In this document: positions 24,045-64,000 of the stretch, piece after piece | Position numbering within the stretch: position 1 is the first letter of the stretch | Layout: every line of letters starts with the position of its first letter | From: Escherichia coli | GTDB taxonomy: Bacteria > Pseudomonadota > Gammaproteobacteria > Enterobacterales > Enterobacteriaceae | Reading direction: 5' to 3' (one strand) | Assembly: GCF_003790525.1 (NCBI RefSeq) | Contig: NZ_CP033635.1 | Length of the DNA stretch: 64,000 nucleotides | Program-made: the position numbers and the translations under genes | The notes under the pieces: model-generated | Told to the model about the DNA's origin: nothing | Databases searched by the model: none | The model's input: only the letters and a program-made list of their open reading frames with translations

Positions 24045-24959
24045 ATGCACTCAATAAAAAAATTAACCATGCTCTTGGGGTTCCTCGCCCTCACCTGCTC
24101 GATCGCATTTCAGGCGAGTGCAACTGAAAAATTCAAGGTCATTACAACATTTACCATCATCGCAGATATGGCCAAAAACGTGGCTGGAGATGTTGCAGAA
24201 GTCTCATCCATAACCAAGCCCGGTGCGGAAATTCATGAGTATCAGCCTACCCCTGGCGATATTAAACGTGCGCAGGGGGCACAACTGATTCTCGCCAATG
24301 GAATGAATCTGGAATTGTGGTTCCAGCGCTTTTACCAGCATCTCAATGGTGTTCCAGAAGTGATTGTCTCTTCGGGTGTGACGCCAGTAGGGATCACCGA
24401 AGGCCCCTACGAGGGAAAACCTAACCCTCATGCCTGGATGTCGCCAGATAATGCTTTGATTTACGTCGATAATATTCGTGATGCGTTGATAAAATACGAT
24501 CCGGCAAATGCAAAAACATACCAACGTAATGCCGATACTTATAAAGCCAAGATTACCCAAACCCTTGCCCCCCTGCGTAAGCAGATTGCTGAACTCCCTG
24601 AGAATAAAAGATGGATGGTCACCAGTGAAGGGGCTTTTTCTTATCTCGCACGCGATTTGGGGCTAAAAGAGCTTTATCTGTGGCCGATAAATGCCGATCA
24701 ACAAGGAACACCCCAGCAGGTACGTAAAGTGGTTGATATAGTGAAGAAAAATAATATCCCAGCGGTATTTAGTGAGAGTACGGTTTCCGATAAACCAGCG
24801 CGTCAGGTTGCGCGTGAAACCGGCGCACACTACGGCGGTGTGCTCTATGTCGATTCCCTGAGCACAGAAAACGGCCCGGTACCTACGTATATCGACCTTC
24901 TGAAGGTTACTACCAGTACGCTGGTGCAGGGAATTAAAGCCGGGAAAAGGGAGAAGTAA
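24045..24959 (+). CDS. sitA: Fe/Mn ABC transporter periplasmic binding protein SitA
   Basis: 304 aa, signal peptide, metal-binding SBP; first of four co-oriented overlapping genes. Confidence 0.9.
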
Positions 24960-25786
24960 TGATGCAATCTGCGGGTATTGTCGTTAATGGCGTTACTGTC
25001 ACCTGGCGTAACGGGCACACAGCACTGCGCGATGCATCCTTCACAGTACCAGGCGGATCTATTGCCGCTCTGGTTGGGGTAAACGGTTCCGGAAAATCGA
25101 CGTTATTTAAAGCGATTATGGGATTCGTGCGTCTGACTACCGGAAAGATATCTGTTCTGGGTATTCCCACGCGGCAGGCTCTGCAGAAAAACCTGATTGC
25201 CTACGTCCCGCAGTCAGAAGAAGTGGACTGGTCCTTTCCTGTACTGGTGGAAGATGTGGTGATGATGGGCCGCTATGGGCATATGGGTATGTTGCGTATA
25301 GCCAATAAGAGGGATCGTCAGGTTGTCACCGATGCGCTGGAACGTGTCGATATGGTAGATTTTCGCCATCGACAAATCGGCGAGCTTTCCGGTGGACAAA
25401 AGAAACGCGTCTTTCTGGCGAGAGCGATTGCACAGCAGGGTGATGTGATCCTGCTGGATGAACCTTTTACCGGCGTTGATGTGAAAACCGAAGCCAAAAT
25501 CATCAGCCTGTTGAGGGAGTTACGCGCGGAAGGCAAAACGATGCTTGTCTCAACGCACAATCTCGGATCCGTCACGACATTTTGCGATTATACGGTCATG
25601 GTCAAAGGCACCGTCCTGGCAAGCGGGCCGACAGACACCACTTTTACAGCCGAGAACCTGGAGCTGGCTTTTAGCGGCGTACTACGCCATGTCACACTTA
25701 AAGGCTCGGAAGAAAGCATTATTACTGACGATGAACGCCCCTTTGTGGCTTATCGACCATCAGCGGTGCAGAGGGAAGAAAGATGA
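24959..25786 (+). CDS. sitB: Fe/Mn ABC transporter ATPase SitB
   Basis: Walker [13 protein letters not shown] signature LSGGQKKR, Walker B ILLDEP. Confidence 0.9.
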
Positions 25787-26640
25787 ACGTGCTACTGGAA
25801 CCCTTCAGCTATGAATATATGCTCAATGCGATGTGGGTCGCGGCGATGGTCGGCGGTCTCTGCGCTTTCCTGTCATGCTATCTGATGCTAAAAGGCTGGT
25901 CGCTGATTGGCGATGCGCTGTCGCACTCTATCGTCCCGGGTGTTGCGGGGGCATATATGCTGGGGCTTCCGTTTTCTCTGGGGGCCTTCTTTTCCGGTGG
26001 ACTGGCTGCGGGCAGCATGCTGTTTCTTAACCAACGCACTCGCTTAAAAGAAGATGCCATCATCGGCCTGATCTTCTCGTCCTTTTTTGGCCTGGGGCTG
26101 TTTATGGTGTCATTAAACCCGACATCCGTAAATATTCAGACCATCGTCCTGGGCAATATTCTGGCAATCGCTCCGGCGGATATCCTGCAACTCACTATCA
26201 TTGGCATTGTCTCAGTCATAGTGCTCTTTTTCAAATGGAAAGATCTTATGGTGACCTTTTTCGACGAGAATCACGCCCGTGCTATTGGATTATATCCAGG
26301 AAGATTAAAAATCCTCTTCTTCACACTGCTGGCGGTATCGACCGTTGCAGCATTGCAAACGGTTGGGGCTTTTCTGGTGATCTGTCTGGTAGTGACCCCT
26401 GGCGCAACAGCATGGTTGTTAACCGATCGTTTTCCCCGCCTGCTCGTGATTGCTGTAACTATTGGCAGTGTAACCAGTTTCCTCGGCGCGTGGGTCAGTT
26501 ACTTTCTGGACGGAGCGACAGGTGGAATCATCGTGGTGGCGCAGACACTGCTGTTTCTTTTAGCATTTGTCTTTGCACCCACCCATGGGCTTTTGGCAAA
26601 TCGTCAGCGTGCGCATAAGGTGCTGGAGGATCGCTCATGA
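25783..26640 (+). CDS. sitC: Fe/Mn ABC transporter permease SitC
   Basis: 285 aa polytopic membrane protein, overlapping start/stop with sitB and sitD. Confidence 0.9.
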
Positions 26641-27515
26641 TGGCATTATTACTGGAGCCACTGCAGTTCACCTTTATGAGTCACGCACTGCTGATTTCAC
26701 TGGTAGTTTCCATACCCTGTGCGCTGCTGTCGGTCTTTCTGGTCCTGAAAGGTTGGGCACTGATGGGAGACGCGATGAGTCATGCGGTTTTTCCTGGTAT
26801 CGTGCTTGCGTGGATACTGGGTTTTCCTCTGGCGGGAGGAGCATTCGTCGCCGGAGTATTCTGCGCGGTGGCGACGGGATACCTGAAAGACAACAGCCGA
26901 ATCAAGCAAGATACAGTGATGGGGATTGTTTTTTCTGGCATGTTTGCCGCAGGTCTGATCTTGTATATTGCAGTCAAACCCGACGTACATCTTGACCATA
27001 TTCTTTTCGGCGACATGCTCGGGGTAACCATCGGCGATATAATCCAGACGGTGATTATTGCCGGGCTGGTTACACTTGTTATTAGCGTAAAATGGCGGGA
27101 TTTTTTGCTGTTCAGCTTTGATTATCAACAGGCGCAGGTAAGCGGTTTGCATACGAGATGGCTGCATTATGGGCTGCTGTGCATGGTCTCTCTGACCATT
27201 GTGGCGACGCTGAAAGCGGTAGGTATCATTCTCTCCATTTCTCTGCTCATTGCGCCTGGCGCCATTGCGGTACTCCTGACGCAACGCTTTCATATTGCGC
27301 TCCTGCTGGCGCTCGGTATATCGGTAATGGTCTCAATGACTGGTGTATGGCTCTCCTTTTTTATAGACAGCGCACCAGCACCAACGATTGTTATCTTATT
27401 CACGGTTGTATTCATCCTGACGTTTACCGCTTCCAGCATCAATGCTCACGCGAAGGAAAATGTCGATCCACAGGATCTCCCGACTAGTACAACAACCAGA
27501 GAGCAACATCTGTAG
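26637..27515 (+). CDS. sitD: Fe/Mn ABC transporter permease SitD
   Basis: 292 aa polytopic membrane protein. Confidence 0.9.
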   Translation: MMALLLEPLQFTFMSHALLISLVVSIPCALLSVFLVLKGWALMGDAMSHAVFPGIVLAWILGFPLAGGAFVAGVFCAVATGYLKDNSRIKQDTVMGIVFSGMFAAGLILYIAVKPDVHLDHILFGDMLGVTIGDIIQTVIIAGLVTLVISVKWRDFLLFSFDYQQAQVSGLHTRWLHYGLLCMVSLTIVATLKAVGIILSISLLIAPGAIAVLLTQRFHIALLLALGISVMVSMTGVWLSFFIDSAPAPTIVILFTVVFILTFTASSINAHAKENVDPQDLPTSTTTREQHL

Positions 27516-30104: not shown

Positions 30105-32306
30105 TCAGAATAATACTGAGTAACTCAGACCAAAGGTGCGGCCCCTGCCTTTGTAGCCGTACAGTGAAGCAGGGCCGTAACCCGGGCTGTAGTACAGTGG
30201 CGCACGCTGCCCCCAGACAGTGGTGTAGTCACGGTCGAAGAGGTTTTCAATGCTGAAGCTGAGTGTACCCACCGGAAGCTGATAACTGCCAAGCAAATCG
30301 ACGATGGTATAGCCATCGACCTTGTAGCCCTGCGCGTCGCTCACGTCAAAGGAGGTGGTGCTCTGCACTCGCAGACTCCACGGGTCCGGTGCCCAGCCAA
30401 TGTAGGCTGTCGCTTTTGATGGGCTTGCTGTCTTCACATCGTATTTCTGCCAGGTACCGTTCACTTTCGACTCAGTTTTCAGCACGTTGAAGTTCACTCC
30501 GGTACTCCAGTCAGTATCAGGAATCAGGTAGTCCACCGCACCTTCCACGCCGTAAATACGGCGTTTGTCGTCCACCACACTGATGGTCAGATCTTTATTC
30601 GCCACCACGCTCTTATCAGAAATCGAATAGTAGGCCGCGATTTGGGTGCGCAGATTATTGCCAGTAAAGCGCCAGCCCAGCTCATAAGAATCGACTTTCA
30701 CGCCTTCCAGCTTGCTGTCGCTGACGTTCACACTCTTTGTTAGAGGAAGATGGCCGTTCACTGCAGCACCATAGATGCCGCGACCATAGTATTTACCCGG
30801 GTCCGGCAGCTCCACGCCCTGGGAGAAGTTGAGCCATGCCTGCTGGCGTTCGGTGATATGCATCAGCAGACCAGCGTTGAACAGGAAGTTGTCGTAATCG
30901 ACTGAGCCGCCAGGAATGGCGTCGGCGGATATAGCCTTCCCGGCGGCAATCTGCCGTTGCTGCGCGTAGCCGATGAAATCATCAATCTTGTTTTCAGTGT
31001 ACTGATAGCGTACGCCACCGTTGAGGGTAAAGAGATTATTGATGTCATAGCCTGATTGCAGGAAGACCGCCAGGTTGGTGATGTCATATGACGGATAGCG
31101 CCCGGTGGTGTAAATCTTCTTGTTGTTCAGCCCTCCGGAAGCGCTTGCTTGAGCCAGGTCGAAGAACATCTGGTTGGAGGTAAAGCGCTCATGATCAGCA
31201 TCCAGCCCCCAGGTGATTTGCCAGCCGTCCATCGGTTTGCTGTTCAGAGTCAGTTTCATGCCGTACTGGTCGGTGTCCTGCTGTGACGAAGAGAAAGCCG
31301 TCACCTGTTTGTTCGCATTTACCGTCGGGAACGGGTAGAATCGCAACGACTCATCGCGGTAGTAAACCTGACCGACCAGCTCCTGTCCCAGGAAAGCGCT
31401 GTCAGAGTACTGCAGGCTGATCAAATGCCGCTCAGTGCCGGGAATACGGTCGGAATTCAGCCCGTTACTGACGAAGGGCGTGCTGGTCCCTCTGATGGCA
31501 GAGAAGCCTTTCCCGAGATTAAGCCCGTAATCGTCGTCGCCCTGGCTTTTATAGTACTGTGTGATCAACTGAAGCTGCCGGGATTCATCGATGTTCAACG
31601 TTCCAGTTCCCATGATGTCCAGCCGATCGGAGTACTGCAGGCCGGTCTGGGTGTTATCAAGCAGGGTGGCATCGCCGTTACCGTCAAACCAGCCGCCAAA
31701 TTTCTGATATGCCACGGAAAGACGTCCGGAGATATGCTCATTTCCGCCGGAGACAGCTCCGGCAATGCGTTCATCGTGATCTTTACTGCTGCTAAAGCCA
31801 CTTTTGGTGCCAGCCTCAAACTCCTTCATGGTTTCCGGCTGGCCTTTTTTGCTCACGATGTTGATCAGGCCACCGGTACTGCCGCCGCCATACAGGGACG
31901 TCGCACCGGAGATCACTTCAATATGGTCGATATTAAAAGGATCTATAGAGTCCAGTTGTCGGCTGTCGGTACGTGAAGAGTTGAGACGCACGCCGTCAAC
32001 CAGCACGACCAGCGGGCGGCCACGCACATTCATACCGTAGTTGGTGCGGCTCCGGCTGCTGACGTCAAGGCCAGGGATCAGCTGAGCCAGTGCGTCCTTA
32101 AGCTCTTTGCCGCCCTGAATCTGCTGTTCCAGTTCGGCGTTTTCGATAACCCAGGTGGTTTGTGCCATCTCCGCTACGGTGCGATTGCTGCGGTTGGCAG
32201 ACACCACGAACGTTTCATCATCGGTTTGTTGAGCGACTGCTGGCGCCATCATGGTAAGAAGCAGTGGGTTGAGAGCCCAAAGCGTATACTTTTTGCTTAT
32301 CATCAT
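30105..32306 (-). CDS. iutA: Ferric aerobactin TonB-dependent outer-membrane receptor IutA
   Basis: 733 aa, signal peptide, TonB-dependent receptor plug and barrel, C-terminal ...YSVLF. Confidence 0.95.
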   Translation of the reverse strand: MMISKKYTLWALNPLLLTMMAPAVAQQTDDETFVVSANRSNRTVAEMAQTTWVIENAELEQQIQGGKELKDALAQLIPGLDVSSRSRTNYGMNVRGRPLVVLVDGVRLNSSRTDSRQLDSIDPFNIDHIEVISGATSLYGGGSTGGLINIVSKKGQPETMKEFEAGTKSGFSSSKDHDERIAGAVSGGNEHISGRLSVAYQKFGGWFDGNGDATLLDNTQTGLQYSDRLDIMGTGTLNIDESRQLQLITQYYKSQGDDDYGLNLGKGFSAIRGTSTPFVSNGLNSDRIPGTERHLISLQYSDSAFLGQELVGQVYYRDESLRFYPFPTVNANKQVTAFSSSQQDTDQYGMKLTLNSKPMDGWQITWGLDADHERFTSNQMFFDLAQASASGGLNNKKIYTTGRYPSYDITNLAVFLQSGYDINNLFTLNGGVRYQYTENKIDDFIGYAQQRQIAAGKAISADAIPGGSVDYDNFLFNAGLLMHITERQQAWLNFSQGVELPDPGKYYGRGIYGAAVNGHLPLTKSVNVSDSKLEGVKVDSYELGWRFTGNNLRTQIAAYYSISDKSVVANKDLTISVVDDKRRIYGVEGAVDYLIPDTDWSTGVNFNVLKTESKVNGTWQKYDVKTASPSKATAYIGWAPDPWSLRVQSTTSFDVSDAQGYKVDGYTIVDLLGSYQLPVGTLSFSIENLFDRDYTTVWGQRAPLYYSPGYGPASLYGYKGRGRTFGLSYSVLF

Positions 32307-32387
32307 TATTCCTCCACACGGGCGGAAAAAATCAGCCCAAAGATGCTGTGTAGCGAGTTAAAGAAGCAGCCTCCGGCTGCGTTTTCC

Positions 32388-33665
32388 CTAGGTGCCGCTG
32401 CGCCACTGAATCAGGGCGGGCGGCATACTGAGATCGAATAAATCACGTCCCATTACACGATTAAGAATACGTGCAGATCTCCATGCCATCAGGCTGAGCT
32501 GAGGTTCGGCGATGCCATGGGTTTGCATACTGGCGTTGACCACGAAGATGTTGTTCTCTTTCGGGCCACTCCATTCCAGAGTGAAGTCATCACGCACTTT
32601 AAAGGTGTTCTTATCGTGCATGGTGATCAGCGGCATCAGTGAGGGAAGTATTTGTGGCAACGCAGAACGGTAACCTGTGGCGAAAATCACCACATCACTT
32701 TCCAGGCTCTCCCTGCCCTGATCCAGATGATGCTCCATCAGCAACTTCCAGCCAGGACCACTACTTTCCAGAGTTGTTACCGAGCGGCTGGGTAGCAGAC
32801 GGATATTTCTTGGTTTTCTCAGAACTTCAAAACGGTGGTACAACTCACGATAAATGGTCAGTAAAGAATCGGCAGTGATGCCATCCGATGTCATTTTCTG
32901 CTCATCCAGTAACTGATGGCGAATATCTTCCTCCAGTCCGGAGAAGCCTGAAATATATTCAGGTGTAAAATACTCATCAGCAAAAGCAGCCTCATCCAGT
33001 GCGTTAAAATTATTCCGCCGGGAGATCCAGTTTATTTCCGCCGCTTCTCCCCATTCCCCGCGTAATGCATTAAGGAACAGGTCTGCACCACTCTGTCCTC
33101 CACCAACCACGGTTACCCGTTTTTCACTAAGGTCCGGCCGACGAAGATTCATTTCACTGGCATGGAAACAGGATTGTGTCATATGCTTCACACAGGGTGG
33201 TAAATAAGGTTGTTTTCCTGTACCAAGGCAGATATTGTGGGCAAAATATTCTCCCCGGCTGGTTTGCACCAGAAACAATCGACGTTTTTTATCGAAATCA
33301 ATGTTTTCAACGGTATGACTGAAATACAGGTTATTCATATCTTCAGCAGCCCAGCGGAGGTAGTCAGAAAACTCTTCACGGGATACTGTACGTAGTCTGC
33401 TTGTAAGGAAGCGATAGAACTTTTTGTGCTTCACCAGATAGTTAACAAAGCTGTAGGGATTTGTAGGTGCAACAGCACTGACCAGATCTTTCAGAAAGAC
33501 GGTCTGCATATGACAATCCGGTACCAGCATACCCGGATGCCAGGAAAAATGAGGATGTTCATCAAAGAAGAGACAGTCCAGTTCTTCGATCTGATGTGAC
33601 AACGCAGCAATGCTGAGATTAAATGGCCCTGTCCCTACACCAATAAAATCGACACTTTTTTTCAT
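32388..33665 (-). CDS. iucD: L-lysine N6-monooxygenase IucD
   Basis: 425 aa, N-terminal FAD-binding GVGTGPFNLS, second dinucleotide motif VVGGGQSG. Confidence 0.95.
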   Translation of the reverse strand: MKKSVDFIGVGTGPFNLSIAALSHQIEELDCLFFDEHPHFSWHPGMLVPDCHMQTVFLKDLVSAVAPTNPYSFVNYLVKHKKFYRFLTSRLRTVSREEFSDYLRWAAEDMNNLYFSHTVENIDFDKKRRLFLVQTSRGEYFAHNICLGTGKQPYLPPCVKHMTQSCFHASEMNLRRPDLSEKRVTVVGGGQSGADLFLNALRGEWGEAAEINWISRRNNFNALDEAAFADEYFTPEYISGFSGLEEDIRHQLLDEQKMTSDGITADSLLTIYRELYHRFEVLRKPRNIRLLPSRSVTTLESSGPGWKLLMEHHLDQGRESLESDVVIFATGYRSALPQILPSLMPLITMHDKNTFKVRDDFTLEWSGPKENNIFVVNASMQTHGIAEPQLSLMAWRSARILNRVMGRDLFDLSMPPALIQWRSGT

Positions 33666-35404
33666 GATTCATATTCCTGAGTTACCAGCCACAGCGGATT
33701 TTGCAGATCCTCAAGGTAATTCGGCAGCATGCGGCTGCCGCCATCCAGATCAGGCCAGGTCAGTTTTACCGGGTTCAGCACCACGCGAATGATTTGTGGC
33801 CTGAAAAGTGAGAAAAGCGCAAAACGCTCTGACATTTGTGGATGTTTTTTCATGTAATCACTCAACACTGCTGCCAGCAGTTGATAAAATCGCCGTTCAG
33901 GTACGCCAAGACGAACCATCAGTGGCGAAATAAAACGCAGTACTGTCACGAAGTGACCCGTCTGCAAATCATGGATTAAGTAGTCCGCACTCAGGCGGGA
34001 TGTAACATCACGAACCTCCTGAGGCAAAGAGTCCATTTCGGGGAACTCTTCTTTCACCAGCCGCATATCGCCCTGGAAGTCTTTCAGCAGAACACGCTGT
34101 GGAACCCCCTTTTTCATGGCGAGCGTTATATTTTGTCCATGTGCAATAAGCGCGACACCGTAGCGGCAAAGCAGGTGATACAGAGGAACCACGACCACCC
34201 GGAACAGTTGCGTAAGCCAGGTTTCAGCGTCCAGCCCGGAGCGGTCTATATATGCGCCTGCCAGCGGCTGATCGTTTTCGTCGCACTCCATCAGTGTTGC
34301 CATCAGAACCGGACTTTCATCCGGTTTCAGCCAGCGGCACGGATTCTCCCGCCAGATAACACCAAGCATTTCCTGGTAGCGATAGGGAGCCCGGGCAAGC
34401 GCGGCATAGCCTTCATGGGAGACATAGCCTGCAGCCGGTTCACCAAGGATCACTGCACCGCTTTGCACCAGGGTAGCGTCGGTCGCAAAAACCTGTTGTA
34501 GCCAGCGTGAAGCCAGTGGTCCGGCAGCGATGTATCTGCCAGGAATCCCCCGGTAGCATGAGGTGTTGTAGATGGTCAGCGGCAGCTTGATATCCAGCCC
34601 ACCCCGGCGACTGGCGTTGGTCAGGGTACGCAGCGACTGCTGGGCGAGCCACTGGTCGCCAAACTCGCCGAGAGACACCATCCTGCCTTCGGCAAAATCA
34701 GCGATGAAGTCGGTGGCGATTTTTTGCTGCCACTGCCACGGATGTACAGGCAGCGGCAGCCAGTTATGATCCAGTCCGTTTTCCTGCCAGACCTGACTGA
34801 AGCGGGCAAACTCCTGCGGATCCATTGCGGCCGTCAACAACTGATGAATATCCATCTCGTTATCACAGCGCCAGATCATATGTTCACGTTTTACCGCCAG
34901 CCAGTGCAGTCTAAAGGTGTTGGCATACTCTGGCGCATATCGTTCCAGCGCCTCTTTACCCCAGCCACGGCGACCTTTATTAAAAACGAATTTAGGATGA
35001 CCGCTCAGCAGGCATTGCAGGCGGTCGGCACTAAGATTAATCAGGTCACTGGCGCTCAGCCCGCGACGGGCTTTCAGCAGTTGCAGGTCGCCCAGCAGCG
35101 TGGAATACAAATCCTGCATATGCTCAGCAACGGTTGCATCGCTCATTGACAGTACCTGCTTTAGCTGCATCAGCAGCGTCTGAGCCAGTACTGGCTCGTC
35201 CGCGCAGCGCAGAGTTTGAGCATCAATCCAGAGCCAGCCCCAGATACCACGTTCAGCGATGAAGCGCCATTGTGCTCCCGGCAGGTTAATGCAGTAGCGG
35301 TCATCGCCCTGAGATTCCGCGTGGAAAACCTGCTCATACTCCAGCTCAGACAACATTTTTGCCACCAAGCGGCGGTTGACCAAATCCCAGTCTTTGTGAT
35401 TCAT
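33662..35404 (-). CDS. iucC: Aerobactin synthase IucC
   Basis: 580 aa IucA/IucC-family siderophore synthetase; start overlaps iucB stop. Confidence 0.95.
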   Translation of the reverse strand: MNHKDWDLVNRRLVAKMLSELEYEQVFHAESQGDDRYCINLPGAQWRFIAERGIWGWLWIDAQTLRCADEPVLAQTLLMQLKQVLSMSDATVAEHMQDLYSTLLGDLQLLKARRGLSASDLINLSADRLQCLLSGHPKFVFNKGRRGWGKEALERYAPEYANTFRLHWLAVKREHMIWRCDNEMDIHQLLTAAMDPQEFARFSQVWQENGLDHNWLPLPVHPWQWQQKIATDFIADFAEGRMVSLGEFGDQWLAQQSLRTLTNASRRGGLDIKLPLTIYNTSCYRGIPGRYIAAGPLASRWLQQVFATDATLVQSGAVILGEPAAGYVSHEGYAALARAPYRYQEMLGVIWRENPCRWLKPDESPVLMATLMECDENDQPLAGAYIDRSGLDAETWLTQLFRVVVVPLYHLLCRYGVALIAHGQNITLAMKKGVPQRVLLKDFQGDMRLVKEEFPEMDSLPQEVRDVTSRLSADYLIHDLQTGHFVTVLRFISPLMVRLGVPERRFYQLLAAVLSDYMKKHPQMSERFALFSLFRPQIIRVVLNPVKLTWPDLDGGSRMLPNYLEDLQNPLWLVTQEYES

Positions 35405-36351
35405 TACAGACCGACCTCCGTGAAGAAGTGATGACGATCCGCCATCACCATGCGCGAGCGTTTATGTGGGAAGTCGAACTCTTTAATTGTCCGGTATCCC
35501 GCAGGCTCAAGATGGCGGAACAGGCGCTGGTTATCGGTGCGTGGCTCCAGTACTGTGCGCTGCGTACGTGGCTCATTCAGCAGCAGGTAATGTGTCACCC
35601 CGCGCAGCCAGCTTTGCACATAGTGGGCTCCGCGCCATTGCTGTTCACCAACCAGCAGATGCAGGCCACGGTCAAAGGGCTGCCACGAATAGTGGCGACC
35701 AATGCGGTCTTCCGCCGCCCAGTAGATTTCGAAATAACTGAACGGCCGATCGTCGAAACAACCAATCAGCGGGAATGCATGTTTACTGGTGAGCTGGCGT
35801 TCCAGATAGGCGATCTGTACCTCCAGTGAGCCACTTTGCTCCCAGAAATACTCAACGCGCGGATCGTTCATCCAGCGAGTGAAACGTTCTGCATCAGAAA
35901 CGGGATCGGCAATGCGGAAACTCAGCATCCTGCGAATGCGTGGATCGTAACGACGATAAACTTCACCCTGCGGACGGGGGGGGCGCTGCGGGAAATAAAT
36001 CTCACGCTCTGCATCAAAAACCATTTCACCGGAGGCCCGGTTTGCCGGAGAACTCAGCCATAACGGTAACTGCCAGAAAGCGGAACGATGGATAATGTCG
36101 CTTTGTACCTGTCCGAAAAGCGTCAGCGCCTGTGGCTCCTCACACCATTCGGACCAGGGAAGAACCACTGCTGAAAGTTGTGGTGCGGCGATAAATATCT
36201 GATCCAGCGCGTCGCACAGCCATCCTGTTGGCAGCTCCCCGGGCCAGTGCAACACCGCGCTATTGTCCAGCCCCCAGCCAAGATTCAGAGGCTTGTCGAG
36301 TTTTTCACAGCGCAGTCCATATCCGCTGTGAACAATGTTTGCCCCAGACAT
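35404..36351 (-). CDS. iucB: N6-hydroxylysine O-acetyltransferase IucB
   Basis: 315 aa acetyltransferase. Confidence 0.95.
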   Translation of the reverse strand: MSGANIVHSGYGLRCEKLDKPLNLGWGLDNSAVLHWPGELPTGWLCDALDQIFIAAPQLSAVVLPWSEWCEEPQALTLFGQVQSDIIHRSAFWQLPLWLSSPANRASGEMVFDAEREIYFPQRPPRPQGEVYRRYDPRIRRMLSFRIADPVSDAERFTRWMNDPRVEYFWEQSGSLEVQIAYLERQLTSKHAFPLIGCFDDRPFSYFEIYWAAEDRIGRHYSWQPFDRGLHLLVGEQQWRGAHYVQSWLRGVTHYLLLNEPRTQRTVLEPRTDNQRLFRHLEPAGYRTIKEFDFPHKRSRMVMADRHHFFTEVGL

Positions 36352-60588: not shown

Positions 60589-60672
60589 ATCTCACTCACC
60601 AGACTTCATTCTCCTGACGCCAGCCTGAACAGAGCTGGCGTTTTCATTTATCTGCAAAAAGGAAAAACGATT

Positions 60673-61458
60673 ATGTCAGATACCACACTCTCCCGCCCGG
60701 AGGTGGTCAGCGGGCATACGGACGTTATCTGTTCCACCTCAGTCTGCCACATTCTGGCTGTACGAAAGAGTACACTGTTGCCAATCGACACACTTATCCG
60801 GCAACTGGCTAAAATCTCAATTCTGACGGAAAGTATTGGAGGTAAAACCGCCCCGGACTGGGCCATGAAACAGGATTTTCGCTGTGGCTGCTGGCTGAAG
60901 GAGAAACAGGAAACCGCAATGAAAGCCATTACCCGCAACCTTGACCGTGAAATCTGGCGTGACCTGATGCAACGTTCAGGGATGCTTTCCTTAATGGATG
61001 CACAGGCCCGTGATACATGGTACCGCTCACTGGAGTACGATAATTTTCAGGAAATCAGCGAAGCGAACATTCTGAGCACATTTGAACAAGTGCACCAGAA
61101 CAAGGATGAGGTGTTTAAGCGGGGAGTGATTAACGTCTTCAGGGAACTGAGCTGGAATTATAAAACCAACTCTCCCTGTAAATTTGGAAGTAAAATCATT
61201 ATCAACAATCTGGTGAGATGGGACCGGTGGGGATTTCATCTTATCACCGGACAACAGACTGACCGACTCGCCGACCTGGAAAGAATGCTACATCTGTTCA
61301 GCGGCACCCCCATCCCCGGCAACGGGAAAAACATAACCATTCATCAGGATGGCACATCCAGTCTGTTCAGGGTAAAGAGTGCTATGAAGATGAGATGTTC
61401 AGTATCAGATACTTTAAGAAGGGCTCCGCGCATATCACGTTTAAACATCCGGAACTAA
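60673..61458 (+). CDS. Hypothetical protein, last gene of the island module
   Basis: 261 aa ORF; family not confidently recognised. Confidence 0.4.
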   Translation: MSDTTLSRPEVVSGHTDVICSTSVCHILAVRKSTLLPIDTLIRQLAKISILTESIGGKTAPDWAMKQDFRCGCWLKEKQETAMKAITRNLDREIWRDLMQRSGMLSLMDAQARDTWYRSLEYDNFQEISEANILSTFEQVHQNKDEVFKRGVINVFRELSWNYKTNSPCKFGSKIIINNLVRWDRWGFHLITGQQTDRLADLERMLHLFSGTPIPGNGKNITIHQDGTSSLFRVKSAMKMRCSVSDTLRRAPRISRLNIRN

Positions 61459-61685
61459 TGGAAAGCTGAACTGGTAATTTCTAAGTATCTGCCCTCTAAT
61501 TCGATTTCGTAATACAGAACATCGAGTCAAACAGAATAATGGAGGAAGACAGAAAAAAGAGGAAAAATAGCACCAGAAGAATTCGAACTGCGCAAGGGGC
61601 CTTATTGGTGGCCCCTAAAAAACACAAACAAAACAACAAATGAAAAAACAATAGATTATACATCTAGTTTTATTCCTAAGGAGAG

Positions 61686-62855
61686 ATGATGCGCCATTGT
61701 GGGTGGTTGCTGGGATTGTTATCGCTGTTTTCTTTGGCAACACATGCCAGTGACTGGCAGGAAATAAAAAATGAGGCCAAAGGACAAACCGTCTGGTTTA
61801 ACGCCTGGGGCGGCGATACCGCAATTAACCGCTATCTCGACTGGGTTAGCGGCGAGATGAAAACCTATTACGCTATAAACCTGAAGATTGTTCGTCTGGC
61901 GGATGCCGCAGACGCGGTAAAGCGCATTCAGACCGAAGCTGTTGCCGGACGTAAAACGGGCGGCTCGGTGGATCTGCTCTGGGTGAACGGCGAAAACTTC
62001 CGCACCTTAAAAGAGGCCAATTTATTACAAACGGGCTGGGCGGAGACTCTGCCCAACTGGCGCTATGTCGACACACAGCTGCCGGTGCGGGAAGATTTTT
62101 CAGTGCCTACAGAAGGGGCTGAATCGCCCTGGGGGGGCGCGCAACTGACGTTTATCGCCCGCCGCGATGTTACGCCGCAGCCACCACAAACGCCGCAAGC
62201 CTTACTGGAGTTTGCTAAAGCCAATCCCGGCACGGTTACCTATCCGCGCCCACCGGACTTTACCGGCACGGCGTTTCTTGAACAGTTGCTGATTATGCTA
62301 ACGCCAGATCCCACAGCATTAAAAGAAGCGCCGGACGATGCGACTTTCGCCCGCGTCACTGCGCCCTTGTGGCAATATCTTGATGCACTGCATCCGTATT
62401 TGTGGCGCGAAGGAAAGGATTTCCCGCCTTCGCCCGCGCGGATGGATGCTCTGCTGAAAGCTAACACATTGCGCCTGTCGCTGACCTTTAACCCTGCACA
62501 TGCGCAGCAAAAAATCGCCAGCGGCGATTTGCCTGCAAGCAGTTACAGTTTTGGTTTTCGCGAGGGGATGATTGGCAACGTCCATTTCCTCACCATTCCT
62601 GCCAACGCGAATGCCAGTGCTGCGGCGAAGGTAGTTGCCAATTTCTTGCTCTCACCCGATGCGCAACTGCGTAAAGCAGATCCCGCTGTCTGGGGCGATC
62701 CTTCTGTTCTCGATCCGCAAAAACTGCCTGACGGGCAGCGCGAAACATTGCAATCGAGAATGCCGCAGGATCTGCCGCCGGTACTGGCTGAACCGCACGC
62801 AGGTTGGGTAAATGCGCTGGAACAAGAATGGCTACACCGTTACGGTACGCATTAA
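61686..62855 (+). CDS. ynjB: ABC transporter periplasmic substrate-binding protein YnjB
   Basis: 389 aa, signal peptide MMRHCGWLLGLLSLFSLATHA; sequence as I recall for E. coli YnjB. Confidence 0.85.
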   Translation: MMRHCGWLLGLLSLFSLATHASDWQEIKNEAKGQTVWFNAWGGDTAINRYLDWVSGEMKTYYAINLKIVRLADAADAVKRIQTEAVAGRKTGGSVDLLWVNGENFRTLKEANLLQTGWAETLPNWRYVDTQLPVREDFSVPTEGAESPWGGAQLTFIARRDVTPQPPQTPQALLEFAKANPGTVTYPRPPDFTGTAFLEQLLIMLTPDPTALKEAPDDATFARVTAPLWQYLDALHPYLWREGKDFPPSPARMDALLKANTLRLSLTFNPAHAQQKIASGDLPASSYSFGFREGMIGNVHFLTIPANANASAAAKVVANFLLSPDAQLRKADPAVWGDPSVLDPQKLPDGQRETLQSRMPQDLPPVLAEPHAGWVNALEQEWLHRYGTH

Positions 62856-64000
62856 TCTTTTTGCTGTGGGCGATGGTGGCGGTGATTTATGCACCGCTGA
62901 TCCCGGCAACTCTCACGCTGATATCGCCTGCTTTGTCGTTGACACACTGGCAGGCGTTATTTGCCGATCCACAGTTACCGCAGGCATTACTGGCAACGCT
63001 GGTGTCGACAACCATCGCGGCGGTCGGGGCGTTGTTGATTGCCTTGCTGGTGATTGTGGCGCTGTGGCCTGGGCCGAAATGGCAGCGTATGTGCGCCCGT
63101 CTGCCGTGGCTGCTCGCCATTCCCCATGTGGCTTTTGCCTCCAGCGCCCTTCTGCTCTTTGCTGACGGAGGGCTGCTTTATGACTATTTCCCATATTTCA
63201 CTCCGCCAATGGACAAATTGGGTATTGGGCTGGGCCTCACCCTGGCGGTGAAAGAAAGCGCATTTCTGCTGTGGATCTTAGCGGCAGTATTGAGCGAAAA
63301 ACGGCTGTTGCAGCAACTCATTGTGCTGGATTCGCTGGGCTACAGCCGCTGGCAATGCCTGAACTGGCTGTTGTTGCCCTCCGTCGCACCTGCACTGGCA
63401 ATGGCGATGCTGGCGATTGTCGCCTGGTCGCTGTCGGTCGTGGATGTGGCGATTATTCTTGGGCCAGGTAATCCCCCGACGCTGGCGGTAATTAGCTGGC
63501 AGTGGTTAACTCAGGGCGACGCCGATCAACAAACGAAAGGCGCACTCGCCAGCCTGCTGCTGCTGCTGTTACTCGCCGCCTACGTTTTGCTGGGCTATCT
63601 GCTATGGCGTAACTGGCGGCGTACTATTCCCCGCGTAGATGGCGTTCGTAAGCCTGCCACACCTTTACTACCAGGCATTACGCTGGCGATTTTTTTACCC
63701 TTGACCGGTGTGCTGTGTGTGGTTCTGCTGGCGATCCTCGCGGATCAGTCGACGATCAATAGTGAAGCGCTCATCAACAGCCTGACAATGGGGCTGGTGG
63801 CGACATTCATCGCTTTGCTCCTGTTACTGCTGTGGCTGGAATGGGGGCTACAACGCCGCCGGTTGTGGCTATGGTTGCCCATTTTATTACCCGCTCTGCC
63901 ACTGGTGGCGGGCCAGTACACGCTGGCGCTATGGCTGAACCTGGATGGAAGCTGGACGGCGGTGGTCTGGGGGCATCTGCTGTGGGTAGTGCCGTGGATG
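62828..64000 (+). CDS. ynjC: ABC transporter permease YnjC, 5' part (continues beyond window end)
   Basis: ATG at 62828 overlapping ynjB stop; hydrophobic polytopic translation with no stop before 64000; absent from ORF track because it has no stop in the window. Confidence 0.8.
   Translation, partial: MATPLRYALIFLLWAMVAVIYAPLIPATLTLISPALSLTHWQALFADPQLPQALLATLVSTTIAAVGALLIALLVIVALWPGPKWQRMCARLPWLLAIPHVAFASSALLLFADGGLLYDYFPYFTPPMDKLGIGLGLTLAVKESAFLLWILAAVLSEKRLLQQLIVLDSLGYSRWQCLNWLLLPSVAPALAMAMLAIVAWSLSVVDVAIILGPGNPPTLAVISWQWLTQGDADQQTKGALASLLLLLLLAAYVLLGYLLWRNWRRTIPRVDGVRKPATPLLPGITLAIFLPLTGVLCVVLLAILADQSTINSEALINSLTMGLVATFIALLLLLLWLEWGLQRRRLWLWLPILLPALPLVAGQYTLALWLNLDGSWTAVVWGHLLWVVPWM

What the first reader, a model, noticed from the sequence alone, without database searches (positions are those of the whole stretch)
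61459..61686. Island boundary immediately upstream of ynjB with a GC-rich hairpin
The island module ends at 61458 and ynjB starts at 61686; ynjA, which I recall preceding ynjB in E. coli K-12, is absent. The 228-bp junction contains a 7-bp-stem hairpin (AGGGGCC...GGCCCCT at about 61594..61614). No tRNA or integrase gene is present at this end, so the integration mechanism or attachment site is not evident.
Basis: partly seen in the sequence, partly recalled or inferred. Interest (0 to 1): 0.3.

Follow-up and report, generated by a model that had tools for sequence, protein, structure and literature searches.

The report
Island right end (attR) at ynjB
This stretch is the right-hand attachment site of a roughly 90-kb virulence island whose integrase and att arms are of the kind that normally targets the tRNA-Phe genes, but whose 7-bp crossover core has changed, so the island now inserts cleanly between ynjA and ynjB.

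Summary
Island DNA runs to 61676. The chromosome resumes at a 7-bp direct repeat, TAAGGAG (61677-61683), which is the ynjA stop codon plus the ynjB Shine-Dalgarno.

ynjA is not lost. In 29 complete E. coli genomes with this same junction it sits intact at the other island end, about 90.7 kb away and outside the window. An intact P4-type tyrosine integrase lies beside it.

The integrase (88-94% aa identity) and both att arms (72-84% for the right arm) are homologous to the tRNA-Phe (pheV/pheU) islands. The reconstructed attP lines up with the tRNA-Phe attP, except that the central 7 bp are TAAGGAG instead of GAGTCCG.

The last 1.4 kb of the island is 100% identical in seven of the nine backgrounds compared. 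Their adjoining core DNA differs by 1-5%, with SNPs starting 4 bp from the core. This indicates repeated site-specific insertion.

The hairpin is at 61595-61616. It is the best-conserved block of the arm, and no T-run follows it. It is more likely a protein-binding inverted repeat, perhaps integrase arm sites, than a terminator.

Verdict: a canonical mechanism with a retargeted att site that I found undescribed in the searchable literature. Interest is moderate.

The parts
60673..61458 (+). Last island gene: DUF4942-family ORF, truncated or frameshifted. PGAP calls the equivalent gene a frameshifted pseudogene ending about 11 nt further on.
   Evidence: Pfam PF13708, E = 4e-44, covering profile positions 1-137 of 190. 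Annotated 'frameshifted' in TUM1886, SCU-115 and DG341-1.
61459..61676 (.). Terminal arm of the island (the P arm of attP, now part of attR). AT-rich, with no convincing ORF.
   Evidence: Present only in the 29 island-bearing genomes at megablast level. It is 72-84% identical to the right-end arms of pheV-type islands in 1,136 genomes. The 55-aa ORF at 61496-61663 (-) has no Pfam match. Rfam found nothing.
61595..61616 (.). GC-rich inverted repeat AGGGGCC-N8-GGCCCCT, the 'hairpin'. Proposed to be a pair of inverted protein-binding motifs, possibly integrase arm-type sites (inferred).
   Evidence: I4. The best-conserved 22-nt windows of the arm (61593-61622; 90% vs a 75% arm mean in 7 arms) overlap it; the hairpin itself scores 87%. 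The GGGG[GC]C motif recurs at +139, +151 and +182 in the other arm, 6 hits against 0.11 expected. No T-run follows the stem on either strand and no terminator was called.
61673..61676 (.). TTCC: the last island bases. Proposed left core-type half-site (C); it matches TTCT in attB and TTCC in tRNA-Phe.
   Evidence: Sequence comparison of attB, attL, attR and pheV att sites. The function is inferred.
61677..61683 (.). TAAGGAG: the 7-bp direct repeat and inferred overlap (crossover) region. It equals the ynjA stop codon TAA plus the ynjB Shine-Dalgarno AGGAG.
   Evidence: Present once in the empty site (L001, L029) and at both island ends (window attR; attL in L003, L030, L011, L031).
61684..64000 (+). 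Core chromosome: ynjB (annotated-equivalent start 61689, stop 62855) and the start of ynjC.
   Evidence: This stretch (from 61673) is 100% identical to island-free SMS-3-5 and 22 other island-free genomes. Pfam finds SBP_bac_8.
49077..49313 (-). AlpA-family small DNA-binding protein inside the island. Candidate regulator or recombination directionality factor (inferred role).
   Evidence: Pfam PF05930 Phage_AlpA, E = 2e-10. Annotated as a helix-turn-helix regulator in TUM1886 and DG341-1.

Best explanation
61459-61683 is attR, the right junction of a roughly 90.7-kb genomic island. The island carries aerobactin iucABCD-iutA, sitABCD, iha, a YadA-like adhesin and a yee/cbtA-DUF4942 module. A P4-type tyrosine integrase encoded at the opposite end inserted it by site-specific recombination.

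Shown: recombination took place within the 7-bp sequence TAAGGAG, which lies between ynjA and ynjB and is shared by attP and attB. Because this core is the ynjA stop codon plus the ynjB ribosome-binding site, both are rebuilt. No gene is damaged, and ynjA ends up about 90 kb away.

Shown: the element is a retargeted member of the tRNA-Phe (pheV/pheU) island family. Its integrase and both att arms are homologous to and colinear with that family. Only the central 7 bp differ: TAAGGAG here, GAGTCCG (part of the tRNA-Phe 3' end) there.

Inferred: the swap is most simply explained as capture of a secondary site's overlap, as in lambda 'saf' mutants. After that, the new attP targeted ynjA|ynjB efficiently and the island spread into many E. 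coli backgrounds.

Inferred, less certain: the GC-rich hairpin is a conserved inverted pair of GGGGCC motifs in the P arm, about 67-81 bp from the core. It is most likely a protein-binding site, perhaps for the integrase arm-binding domain, and not a transcription terminator.

Inferred: ynjBCD is now cut off from the ydjX operon promoter. It must depend on read-through from the island's last genes.
For: - Empty site versus junctions: attB ...gttct TAAGGAG agaagATG; attL ...gttct TAAGGAG ggtactacc...; attR ...tattcc TAAGGAG aga(t/a)gATG.
- About 5,380 of 5,426 complete genomes have ynjA directly upstream of ynjB. 29 have this junction.
- In DG341-1 and SCU-115, ynjA is intact and an intact 395-aa integrase lies 187 bp downstream. 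The island is about 90.7 kb.
- The integrase has Arm-DNA-bind_3 + Phage_int_M + Phage_integrase domains.
- It is 94% identical to an integrase found at pheV and pheU, and 87-88% identical to other pheV/pheU-type integrases.
- Homology of the left arm begins right after TAAGGAG, and homology of the right arm ends at ...ATTCC right before it. The reconstructed attP sites align base for base, with only 2 of 7 identities in the centre.
- The terminal 1,400 bp of the island has 0 mismatches among 7 genomes. Their adjoining 2,300 bp of core differs by 21-118 mismatches.
- There are 9 flank haplotypes among 9 island carriers, with SNPs at +4, +19 and +51 from the core. The window's flank is 100% identical to island-free SMS-3-5. 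The left side shows the same pattern.
- Hairpin: present. The best-conserved 22-nt windows of the arm overlap it. The motif recurs in the other arm. No terminator or promoter is called in or near 61459-61686; the single terminator-like hit lies inside the DUF4942 ORF at 61261-61276 (-).
Against: - No excised circular attP and no second species carrying the element were found. There were 0 hits in species-representative genomes, and the single metagenome hit is again attL at ynjA. Current excision and transfer are therefore inferred, not seen.
- The window itself does not contain the left end, so its integrase and attL are inferred from other genomes.
- Whether the 24 aa differences from the nearest tRNA-Phe integrase matter for targeting is unknown.
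- Integrase arm-site binding to the hairpin is untested. The motif resemblance between the arms is short (6-7 nt).
- The literature search covered only open-access text.
Confidence: 0.8

Rival explanations
1. A single accidental (secondary-site or illegitimate) insertion of an ordinary pheV-type island happened in one ancestor. It was then inherited vertically or moved with flanking DNA by homologous recombination. On this view ynjA|ynjB is not a real attB.
For: Only 29 of 5,426 complete genomes carry it, and all are E. coli. No free attP was found.
Against: The island ends are 100% identical while the adjoining core differs by 1-5%. There are 9 flank haplotypes, and polymorphisms start 4 bp from the core on the right. 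The left side shows the same contrast. The window's flank equals that of island-free SMS-3-5. The integrase is distinct from its nearest tRNA-Phe relative (94% aa identity), and DNA this close to it (>=99%) occurs only in the 29 carriers. Both junctions carry the same 7 bp, as expected for a matched attP/attB pair.
Confidence: 0.1
2. The hairpin is a Rho-independent terminator. It would end transcription of the island's last operon (DUF4942) and insulate ynjB.
For: A GC-rich 7-bp stem lies 137 nt downstream of the DUF4942 stop on the same strand. The region folds somewhat better than shuffles (z = -2.3).
Against: The stem is followed by an A-run on the + strand and by non-T sequence on the - strand. 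The terminator scan does not call it. In four of the six related arms the 3' arm reads GGCCTC with no compensatory change. The same G-rich motif recurs in the opposite att arm next to the integrase start.
Confidence: 0.15
3. ynjA (and perhaps more) was deleted when the island arrived, so the junction is a deletion scar rather than a clean att site.
For: ynjA is not in the 64-kb window.
Against: ynjA is full-length, with its own stop codon, at the left end of the island in DG341-1, SCU-115, a draft contig and a metagenome contig. The junctions add up exactly to the empty site plus one 7-bp duplication.
Confidence: 0.03

Closest known systems
pheV/pheU (tRNA-Phe) pathogenicity islands of E. coli with P4-type integrases (e.g. 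pheV islands ending at kps or yghD)
   Same: The integrase is 88-94% identical with the same three-domain architecture. The left arm and int promoter region, and the right arm including the hairpin, are homologous and colinear. Both have the same terminal yee/cbtA-DUF4942 module. The cargo is of a similar type: aerobactin and iha.
   Different: The central 7 bp of the att core are TAAGGAG instead of GAGTCCG. The two downstream positions corresponding to the tRNA 3' end also differ (GGTACTACC vs GGCACCACC). The target is the ynjA-ynjB junction rather than a tRNA gene. The direct repeat is 7 bp rather than about 21 bp.
Lambda site-affinity (saf) mutants and secondary attachment sites (Weisberg et al. 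1983, J Mol Biol 170:319; reference listed in 10.1101/2023.11.06.565760)
   Same: In both, an attP with the usual arms carries an overlap region replaced by that of another chromosomal site. This redirects integration, because tyrosine recombinases need overlap identity. The saf biology is from my own knowledge; only the citation was seen.
   Different: Saf mutants were made in the laboratory in a phage. Here the change is found in nature, in a 90-kb island, and has spread into many strains. The origin by excision from a secondary site is inferred, not shown.
Sa3int staphylococcal phages adapting their attP to alternative attB sites (PMC8649754)
   Same: This is natural or experimental evolution of the att core towards homology with a new bacterial site after integration at secondary sites, which then enhances integration there (abstract).
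   Different: It involves a different recombinase family member and host. Sa3int shows heterogeneous populations with many sites, whereas here there is one fixed new site and a fixed new core.
Satellite phage P4 / CP4-type islands (P4 integrase family, AlpA regulators)
   Same: Same integrase family architecture (Arm-DNA-bind_3 N-terminal domain). An AlpA-family gene is present in the island. Integration rebuilds the 3' end of the target.
   Different: The classical P4-type elements (P4, CP4-57) target tRNA or tmRNA genes (my own knowledge). This one rebuilds a stop codon plus Shine-Dalgarno between two protein genes.

Membership tests
Integrase-borne genomic island (site-specific, tyrosine recombinase) | Integrase gene at one end of the element | tested here: met
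   An intact 395-aa integrase lies 187 bp from ynjA in DG341-1 and SCU-115, and the same arrangement occurs in a draft contig and a metagenome contig. It is not inside the window.
Integrase-borne genomic island (site-specific, tyrosine recombinase) | Direct repeat at both ends that occurs once in the empty site | tested here: met
   TAAGGAG is at attL and attR, and occurs once in L001 and L029.
Integrase-borne genomic island (site-specific, tyrosine recombinase) | Presence/absence polymorphism with a precise empty site in related strains | tested here: met
   29 genomes have the island and about 5,380 have ynjA-ynjB contiguous. SMS-3-5's flank is 100% identical to the window's but lacks the island.
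Integrase-borne genomic island (site-specific, tyrosine recombinase) | Excision to a circular form with attP, and regeneration of attB | not testable with these tools
   No attP junction was found in the public contig scans. This needs PCR, or read-level searches in carrier strains.
P4-type (heterobivalent) tyrosine integrases | N-terminal arm-binding domain plus central and catalytic domains with the catalytic residues | tested here: met
   Pfam PF13356, PF22022 and PF00589 are all above cut-off. The R...HxxR...H...Y motifs (LRTIELR, HGFRHT, LAHVDKN, GTYNH) are invariant in alignment A3.
tRNA-Phe (pheV/pheU) island family | Integrase and att arms homologous to those of islands at pheV/pheU | tested here: met
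   88-94% aa identity. The left arm and int DNA are about 84-85% identical, and the right arm 72-84%.
tRNA-Phe (pheV/pheU) island family | Integration into the 3' end of a tRNA-Phe gene, with the tRNA 3' end as direct repeat | tested here: not met
   There is no tRNA in the window. The core is TAAGGAG between ynjA and ynjB, and GAGTCCG is absent. It is therefore a relative by descent but not a member by target.
Rho-independent terminator (for the hairpin) | GC-rich stem-loop immediately followed by a T/U run on the transcribed strand | tested here: not met
   The stem is present, but it is followed by AAAAAACAC on + and TGCGCAG on -. The terminator scan did not call it.
Integrase arm-type binding sites (for the hairpin) | Short motif repeated in both arms of attP, conserved among relatives, and bound by the Int N-terminal domain | tested here: inconclusive
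   GGGG[GC]C gives 6 overlapping matches at 5 sites (2 in the P arm, 3 in the P' arm) against 0.11 expected, and it is conserved in relatives. Binding itself cannot be tested here.

The most novel reading that the evidence does not exclude
This is a natural, recently mobile 'site-affinity' switch. A tRNA-Phe-type integrase island lineage changed only the 7-bp overlap of its attP (plus about 6% of integrase residues, half of them within residues 256-313 of the catalytic domain). It thereby moved from a tRNA gene to a stop-codon/Shine-Dalgarno junction.

If so, it pins the crossover of the whole pheV/pheU integrase family to GAGTCCG, flanked by TTCY/RG half-sites. It would also mean targeting in this family is set largely by overlap identity, so these integrases could be reprogrammed by editing 7 bp.
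Probability: 0.5. Interest if true: 0.6.

Novelty: new variant of a known kind. Interest (0 to 1): 0.4.

Why it matters
- It explains an apparently anchorless island end. It also adds ynjA|ynjB to the E. coli island insertion sites; I found no description of this site in the searchable literature.
- It is a natural example of att-site retargeting within a well-known pathogenicity-island family. The island carries aerobactin, sit and iha into diverse poultry-, pig- and human-associated strains.
- Only 7 bp are shared between attP and attB here, against about 21 bp at tRNA-Phe. The junction therefore locates the strand-exchange region for this integrase family.
- It gives matched integrase/attP pairs (94% identical proteins, swapped cores) for testing what sets target choice.
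- The insertion also separates ynjBCD from its operon promoter, which may alter expression of that transporter.

Tried and rejected
- Rfam scan of 60600-62000 at a permissive threshold: no RNA family.
- Sigma-70 promoter scan of 61200-61900: none. The only terminator-like hit lies inside the DUF4942 ORF at 61261-61276 (-) and is not the hairpin.
- The 55-aa ORF on the minus strand (61496-61663): no Pfam match, so it was treated as spurious.
- IHF consensus WATCAANNNNTTR in the reconstructed attP: no match.
- Exact-pattern scans for the island left end or attP (TAAGGAGGGTACTACCTTCAC): 0 hits in species-representative genomes. The 1 metagenome hit is again attL at ynjA, so there is no evidence for a circular form or for other host species.
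- Literature searches for ynjA/ynjB + island/integrase and for the integrase accession: nothing relevant. A review of E. coli islands does not mention this site.
- My first hand count placed TAAGGAG at 61666-61672. A script corrected this to 61677-61683.
- NCBIfam did not name the siderophore genes above its cut-offs. The names iucABCD-iutA were taken from the RefSeq annotation of DG341-1 instead.

Full report
**Observation.**

The sequence was read directly and ORFs were listed.
- An ORF ends at 61458. Pfam identifies it as DUF4942, covering only profile positions 1-137 of 190. RefSeq annotates the equivalent gene as a frameshifted pseudogene.
- An ORF begins at 61686 and is ynjB.
- The inverted repeat is real but sits at 61595-61601 / 61610-61616: AGGGGCC, an 8-nt loop, then GGCCCCT.
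- In shuffles of this 36%-GC stretch, any perfect 7-bp stem appears 7% of the time. One with at least 6 G/C pairs appears 0.005% of the time.
- The window contains no tRNA gene, no YnjA homologue and no homologue of the integrase described below.

**Where the boundary really is.**

Megablast against 5,426 complete E. coli genomes shows that homology to ordinary genomes starts at 61673. In about 5,380 genomes ynjA lies directly there.

Only 29 genomes share the full junction. The three sites compare as follows:
- Empty site (AGR6128, SMS-3-5): ...aaaaacgttct TAAGGAG aga(a/t)gATGcgcc...
- Window: ...tagttttattcc TAAGGAG agatgATGcgcc...
- Other island end in DG341-1: ...aaaaacgttct TAAGGAG ggtactaccttc...

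The island is therefore flanked by a 7-bp direct repeat, TAAGGAG (window 61677-61683). Counting the imperfect TTCY before it, the repeat spans 61673-61683.

The repeat is the ynjA stop codon TAA plus the ynjB Shine-Dalgarno AGGAG, so both are rebuilt by the insertion. The start codon that PGAP annotates corresponds to 61689. The ATG at 61686 results from an A/T polymorphism that island-free SMS-3-5 also has.

**ynjA and the integrase.**

In DG341-1 the island runs from record position about 673,043 to 763,788, roughly 90.7 kb. At the far end, ynjA is full-length and is followed 187 bp later by an intact 395-aa tyrosine integrase.

SCU-115, a draft contig and a metagenome contig show the same arrangement.

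The integrase has the P4-type architecture: Arm-DNA-bind_3, Phage_int_M and Phage_integrase. An AlpA-family gene lies in the window at 49077-49313 (-).

Cargo annotated in DG341-1 includes iucABCD-iutA, sitABCD, sodC, iha, a YadA-like adhesin and the yee/cbtA-DUF4942 module.

**What family it belongs to.**

The 214 bp between the DUF4942 stop and the core are not anonymous. In 'distant' mode they match, at 72-84% identity, the right-end arms of islands in 1,136 genomes. Of the seven I inspected, five abut kps or yghD, which is the pheV locus, and two abut a second integrase gene (tandem islands).

The alignment runs through ...GTTT(T/C)ATTCC. There the relatives continue with GAGTCCGGGCACCA, the 3' end of tRNA-Phe, while the window continues with TAAGGAG.

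On the other side, the integrase gene and its upstream arm are about 84-85% identical in DNA to integrases next to tRNA-Phe at pheV and pheU. That homology starts at the last base of TAAGGAG.

At protein level the integrase is:
- 87-88% identical to three of those tRNA-Phe-type integrases;
- 94% identical to P0121, a variant found at pheV, at pheU and in tandem arrays.

In a 5.8-billion-protein search, no listed relative outside the integrase's own 90%-identity cluster exceeds 89% identity. That cluster holds the 94%-identical tRNA-Phe integrase P0121, and every member read is from E. coli.

The two reconstructed attP sites are:
- This island: tagattatacatctagttttattcc TAAGGAG ggtactaccttcacttc
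- pheV type: ctgattacacaaccagtttcattcc GAGTCCG ggcaccactttcacttc

The flanks are colinear and roughly 70-80% identical. The central 7 bp share only 2 of 7 positions. This is a tRNA-Phe-type attP with a swapped centre.

The empty site reads TTCT-TAAGGAG-AGAA, a 4-bp inverted repeat around a 7-bp spacer. That is the canonical layout of a tyrosine-recombinase core, and its half-sites resemble the TTCC of the tRNA-Phe core. This last point is my inference from the sequences.

**One accident or a real attachment site?**

I compared the right junction in nine carriers: the window, SCU-115, DG341-1, NRZ14408, L26, SFE8, B771, strain 135 and TUM1886.
- The last 1,400 bp of the island have zero mismatches among seven of them.
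- The next 2,300 bp of chromosome differ by 21-118 mismatches, 95-99% identity.
- In the first 400 bp of flank there are nine haplotypes among the nine carriers, with polymorphisms at +4, +19 and +51 from the core.
- The window's flank is 100% identical to SMS-3-5 and 22 other island-free genomes. None of the complete-genome carriers has that flank.
- SCU-115's flank is nearly that of island-free AGR6128.
- The left end behaves the same way: island 99.96% identical, core 97.9%.

Vertical descent, or transfer with flanking DNA, would not give identical island ends abutting diverged flanks right up to the core. Repeated site-specific insertion of one recently spreading element is the economical reading. 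ynjA|ynjB is therefore a genuine attB for this attP/integrase pair.

**How the switch probably arose (inferred).**

Tyrosine recombinases need identity in the overlap region. Lambda saf mutants acquire the overlap of a secondary site and then prefer that site. The reference is Weisberg et al. 1983, which I saw listed in 10.1101/2023.11.06.565760. The biology is from my own knowledge.

Sa3int phages of S. aureus adapt their attP in the same way (PMC8649754).

Five of seven positions differ here, so stepwise mutation is unlikely. Capture of the overlap in one step after a rare secondary-site insertion is more plausible.

The two C-to-T differences just downstream (GGTACTACC vs GGCACCACC) lie where the tRNA 3' end would be. 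They fit relaxed constraint once no tRNA has to be rebuilt.

Twenty-four residues separate the integrase from its nearest tRNA-Phe relative, half of them within residues 256-313. Whether they matter for targeting is unknown.

**The hairpin.**
- The best-conserved 22-nt windows of the arm among seven related arms (61593-61622; 90% vs a 75% arm mean) overlap the hairpin, which itself scores 87%.
- In four of the six related arms the 3' half reads GGCCTC, with no compensating change.
- No T-run follows the stem on either strand, and the terminator scan does not call it.
- The motif GGGG[GC]C occurs six times in the 425-bp reconstructed attP against 0.11 expected. The positions are the two hairpin arms at -81 and -67, plus +139, +151 and +182 next to the integrase start.
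- Those other-arm copies are invariant among relatives.
- I therefore favour a protein-binding inverted repeat, perhaps arm-type integrase sites (about 40-45%), over a terminator (about 15%). This is not tested.
- Rfam has no match.

**Consequences for ynjB.**

In the empty site, ydjX-ydjY-ydjZ-ynjA-ynjB-ynjC-ynjD are tightly packed or overlapping, which suggests one operon. That is my inference.

After insertion, ynjB keeps its Shine-Dalgarno but is 90 kb from that promoter. No sigma-70-like promoter is found in 61200-61900. Expression would depend on read-through from the island's last genes.

**Comparison and novelty.**

The mechanism is canonical integrase-mediated insertion. By descent the element belongs with the pheV/pheU islands, but it fails their defining feature, integration into tRNA-Phe.

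Searches of the open literature for ynjA/ynjB with island or integrase, and for the integrase accession, found nothing relevant. No circular attP and no other host species were found.

I rate it a new variant of a known kind, of moderate interest.

Noticed in passing
window 61686-61691: ynjB has two in-frame ATGs (ATGATG) here because of an A/T polymorphism 4 bp after the att core. SMS-3-5-like backgrounds have T; AGR6128, SCU-115 and SFE8 have A (AAGATG). PGAP uses the second ATG. Both alleles have received the island.
   Followed up: yes
window 61673-64000: The window's core flank is 100% identical to SMS-3-5 and 22 other island-free genomes. All complete-genome carriers differ from it by 2.3-4.2%. 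The window's strain is therefore a carrier lineage not represented among complete RefSeq genomes.
   Followed up: partly
window 30105-39405: An aerobactin-type siderophore locus (iutA, iucD, iucC, iucB, iucA on the minus strand, plus an MFS transporter gene on the plus strand). sitABCD lies at about 24045-27515. The names come from the RefSeq annotation of the collinear DG341-1 island; NCBIfam gave only below-cut-off family hits.
   Followed up: partly
window 43731-45326 (-): A YadA-like trimeric autotransporter adhesin gene with internal roughly 100-bp repeats. The repeats show as self-similar matches around 44215-44626 at 86-95% identity.
   Followed up: no
window 1-12000: The left part of the window is dense with insertion-sequence genes and fragments (IS100/IS21, IS66, IS110, IS2/IS3). 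Only 78% of it is collinear with the other carriers, so the island interior differs between strains through IS content.
   Followed up: no
window 49077-49313 (-), 48328-49122 (-), 50311-51042 (-): An AlpA-family small regulator is flanked by 'inovirus Gp2 / YagK-YfjJ' family genes, as in CP4-type islands. It may act as the recombination directionality factor.
   Followed up: partly
L033 and L034 (2001-3653); L016 (2230-2500): Tandem island arrays at tRNA-Phe. In strains 13P484A and 1223 the conserved right arm and tRNA-Phe repeat are followed directly by a second, different integrase gene. In L016 the 94%-identical integrase sits behind only a 3' half of tRNA-Phe, next to ParA/DnaB-like genes.
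   Followed up: no
L027 (B771) 1-2029; L028 (strain 135): Two carriers have diverged or rearranged island termini (97.4% and 95.2% in the last 1.4 kb). B771 has F4/K88 fimbrial gene fragments in place of the cbtA module. Both keep the identical att junction.
   Followed up: no
L004-L007, L032-L034: In pheV-type relatives a toxin-antitoxin pair (ParDE, or DUF6088/AbiEii) sits between DUF4942 and the att arm. In the window's island that module is missing and the DUF4942 gene is frameshifted.
   Followed up: no
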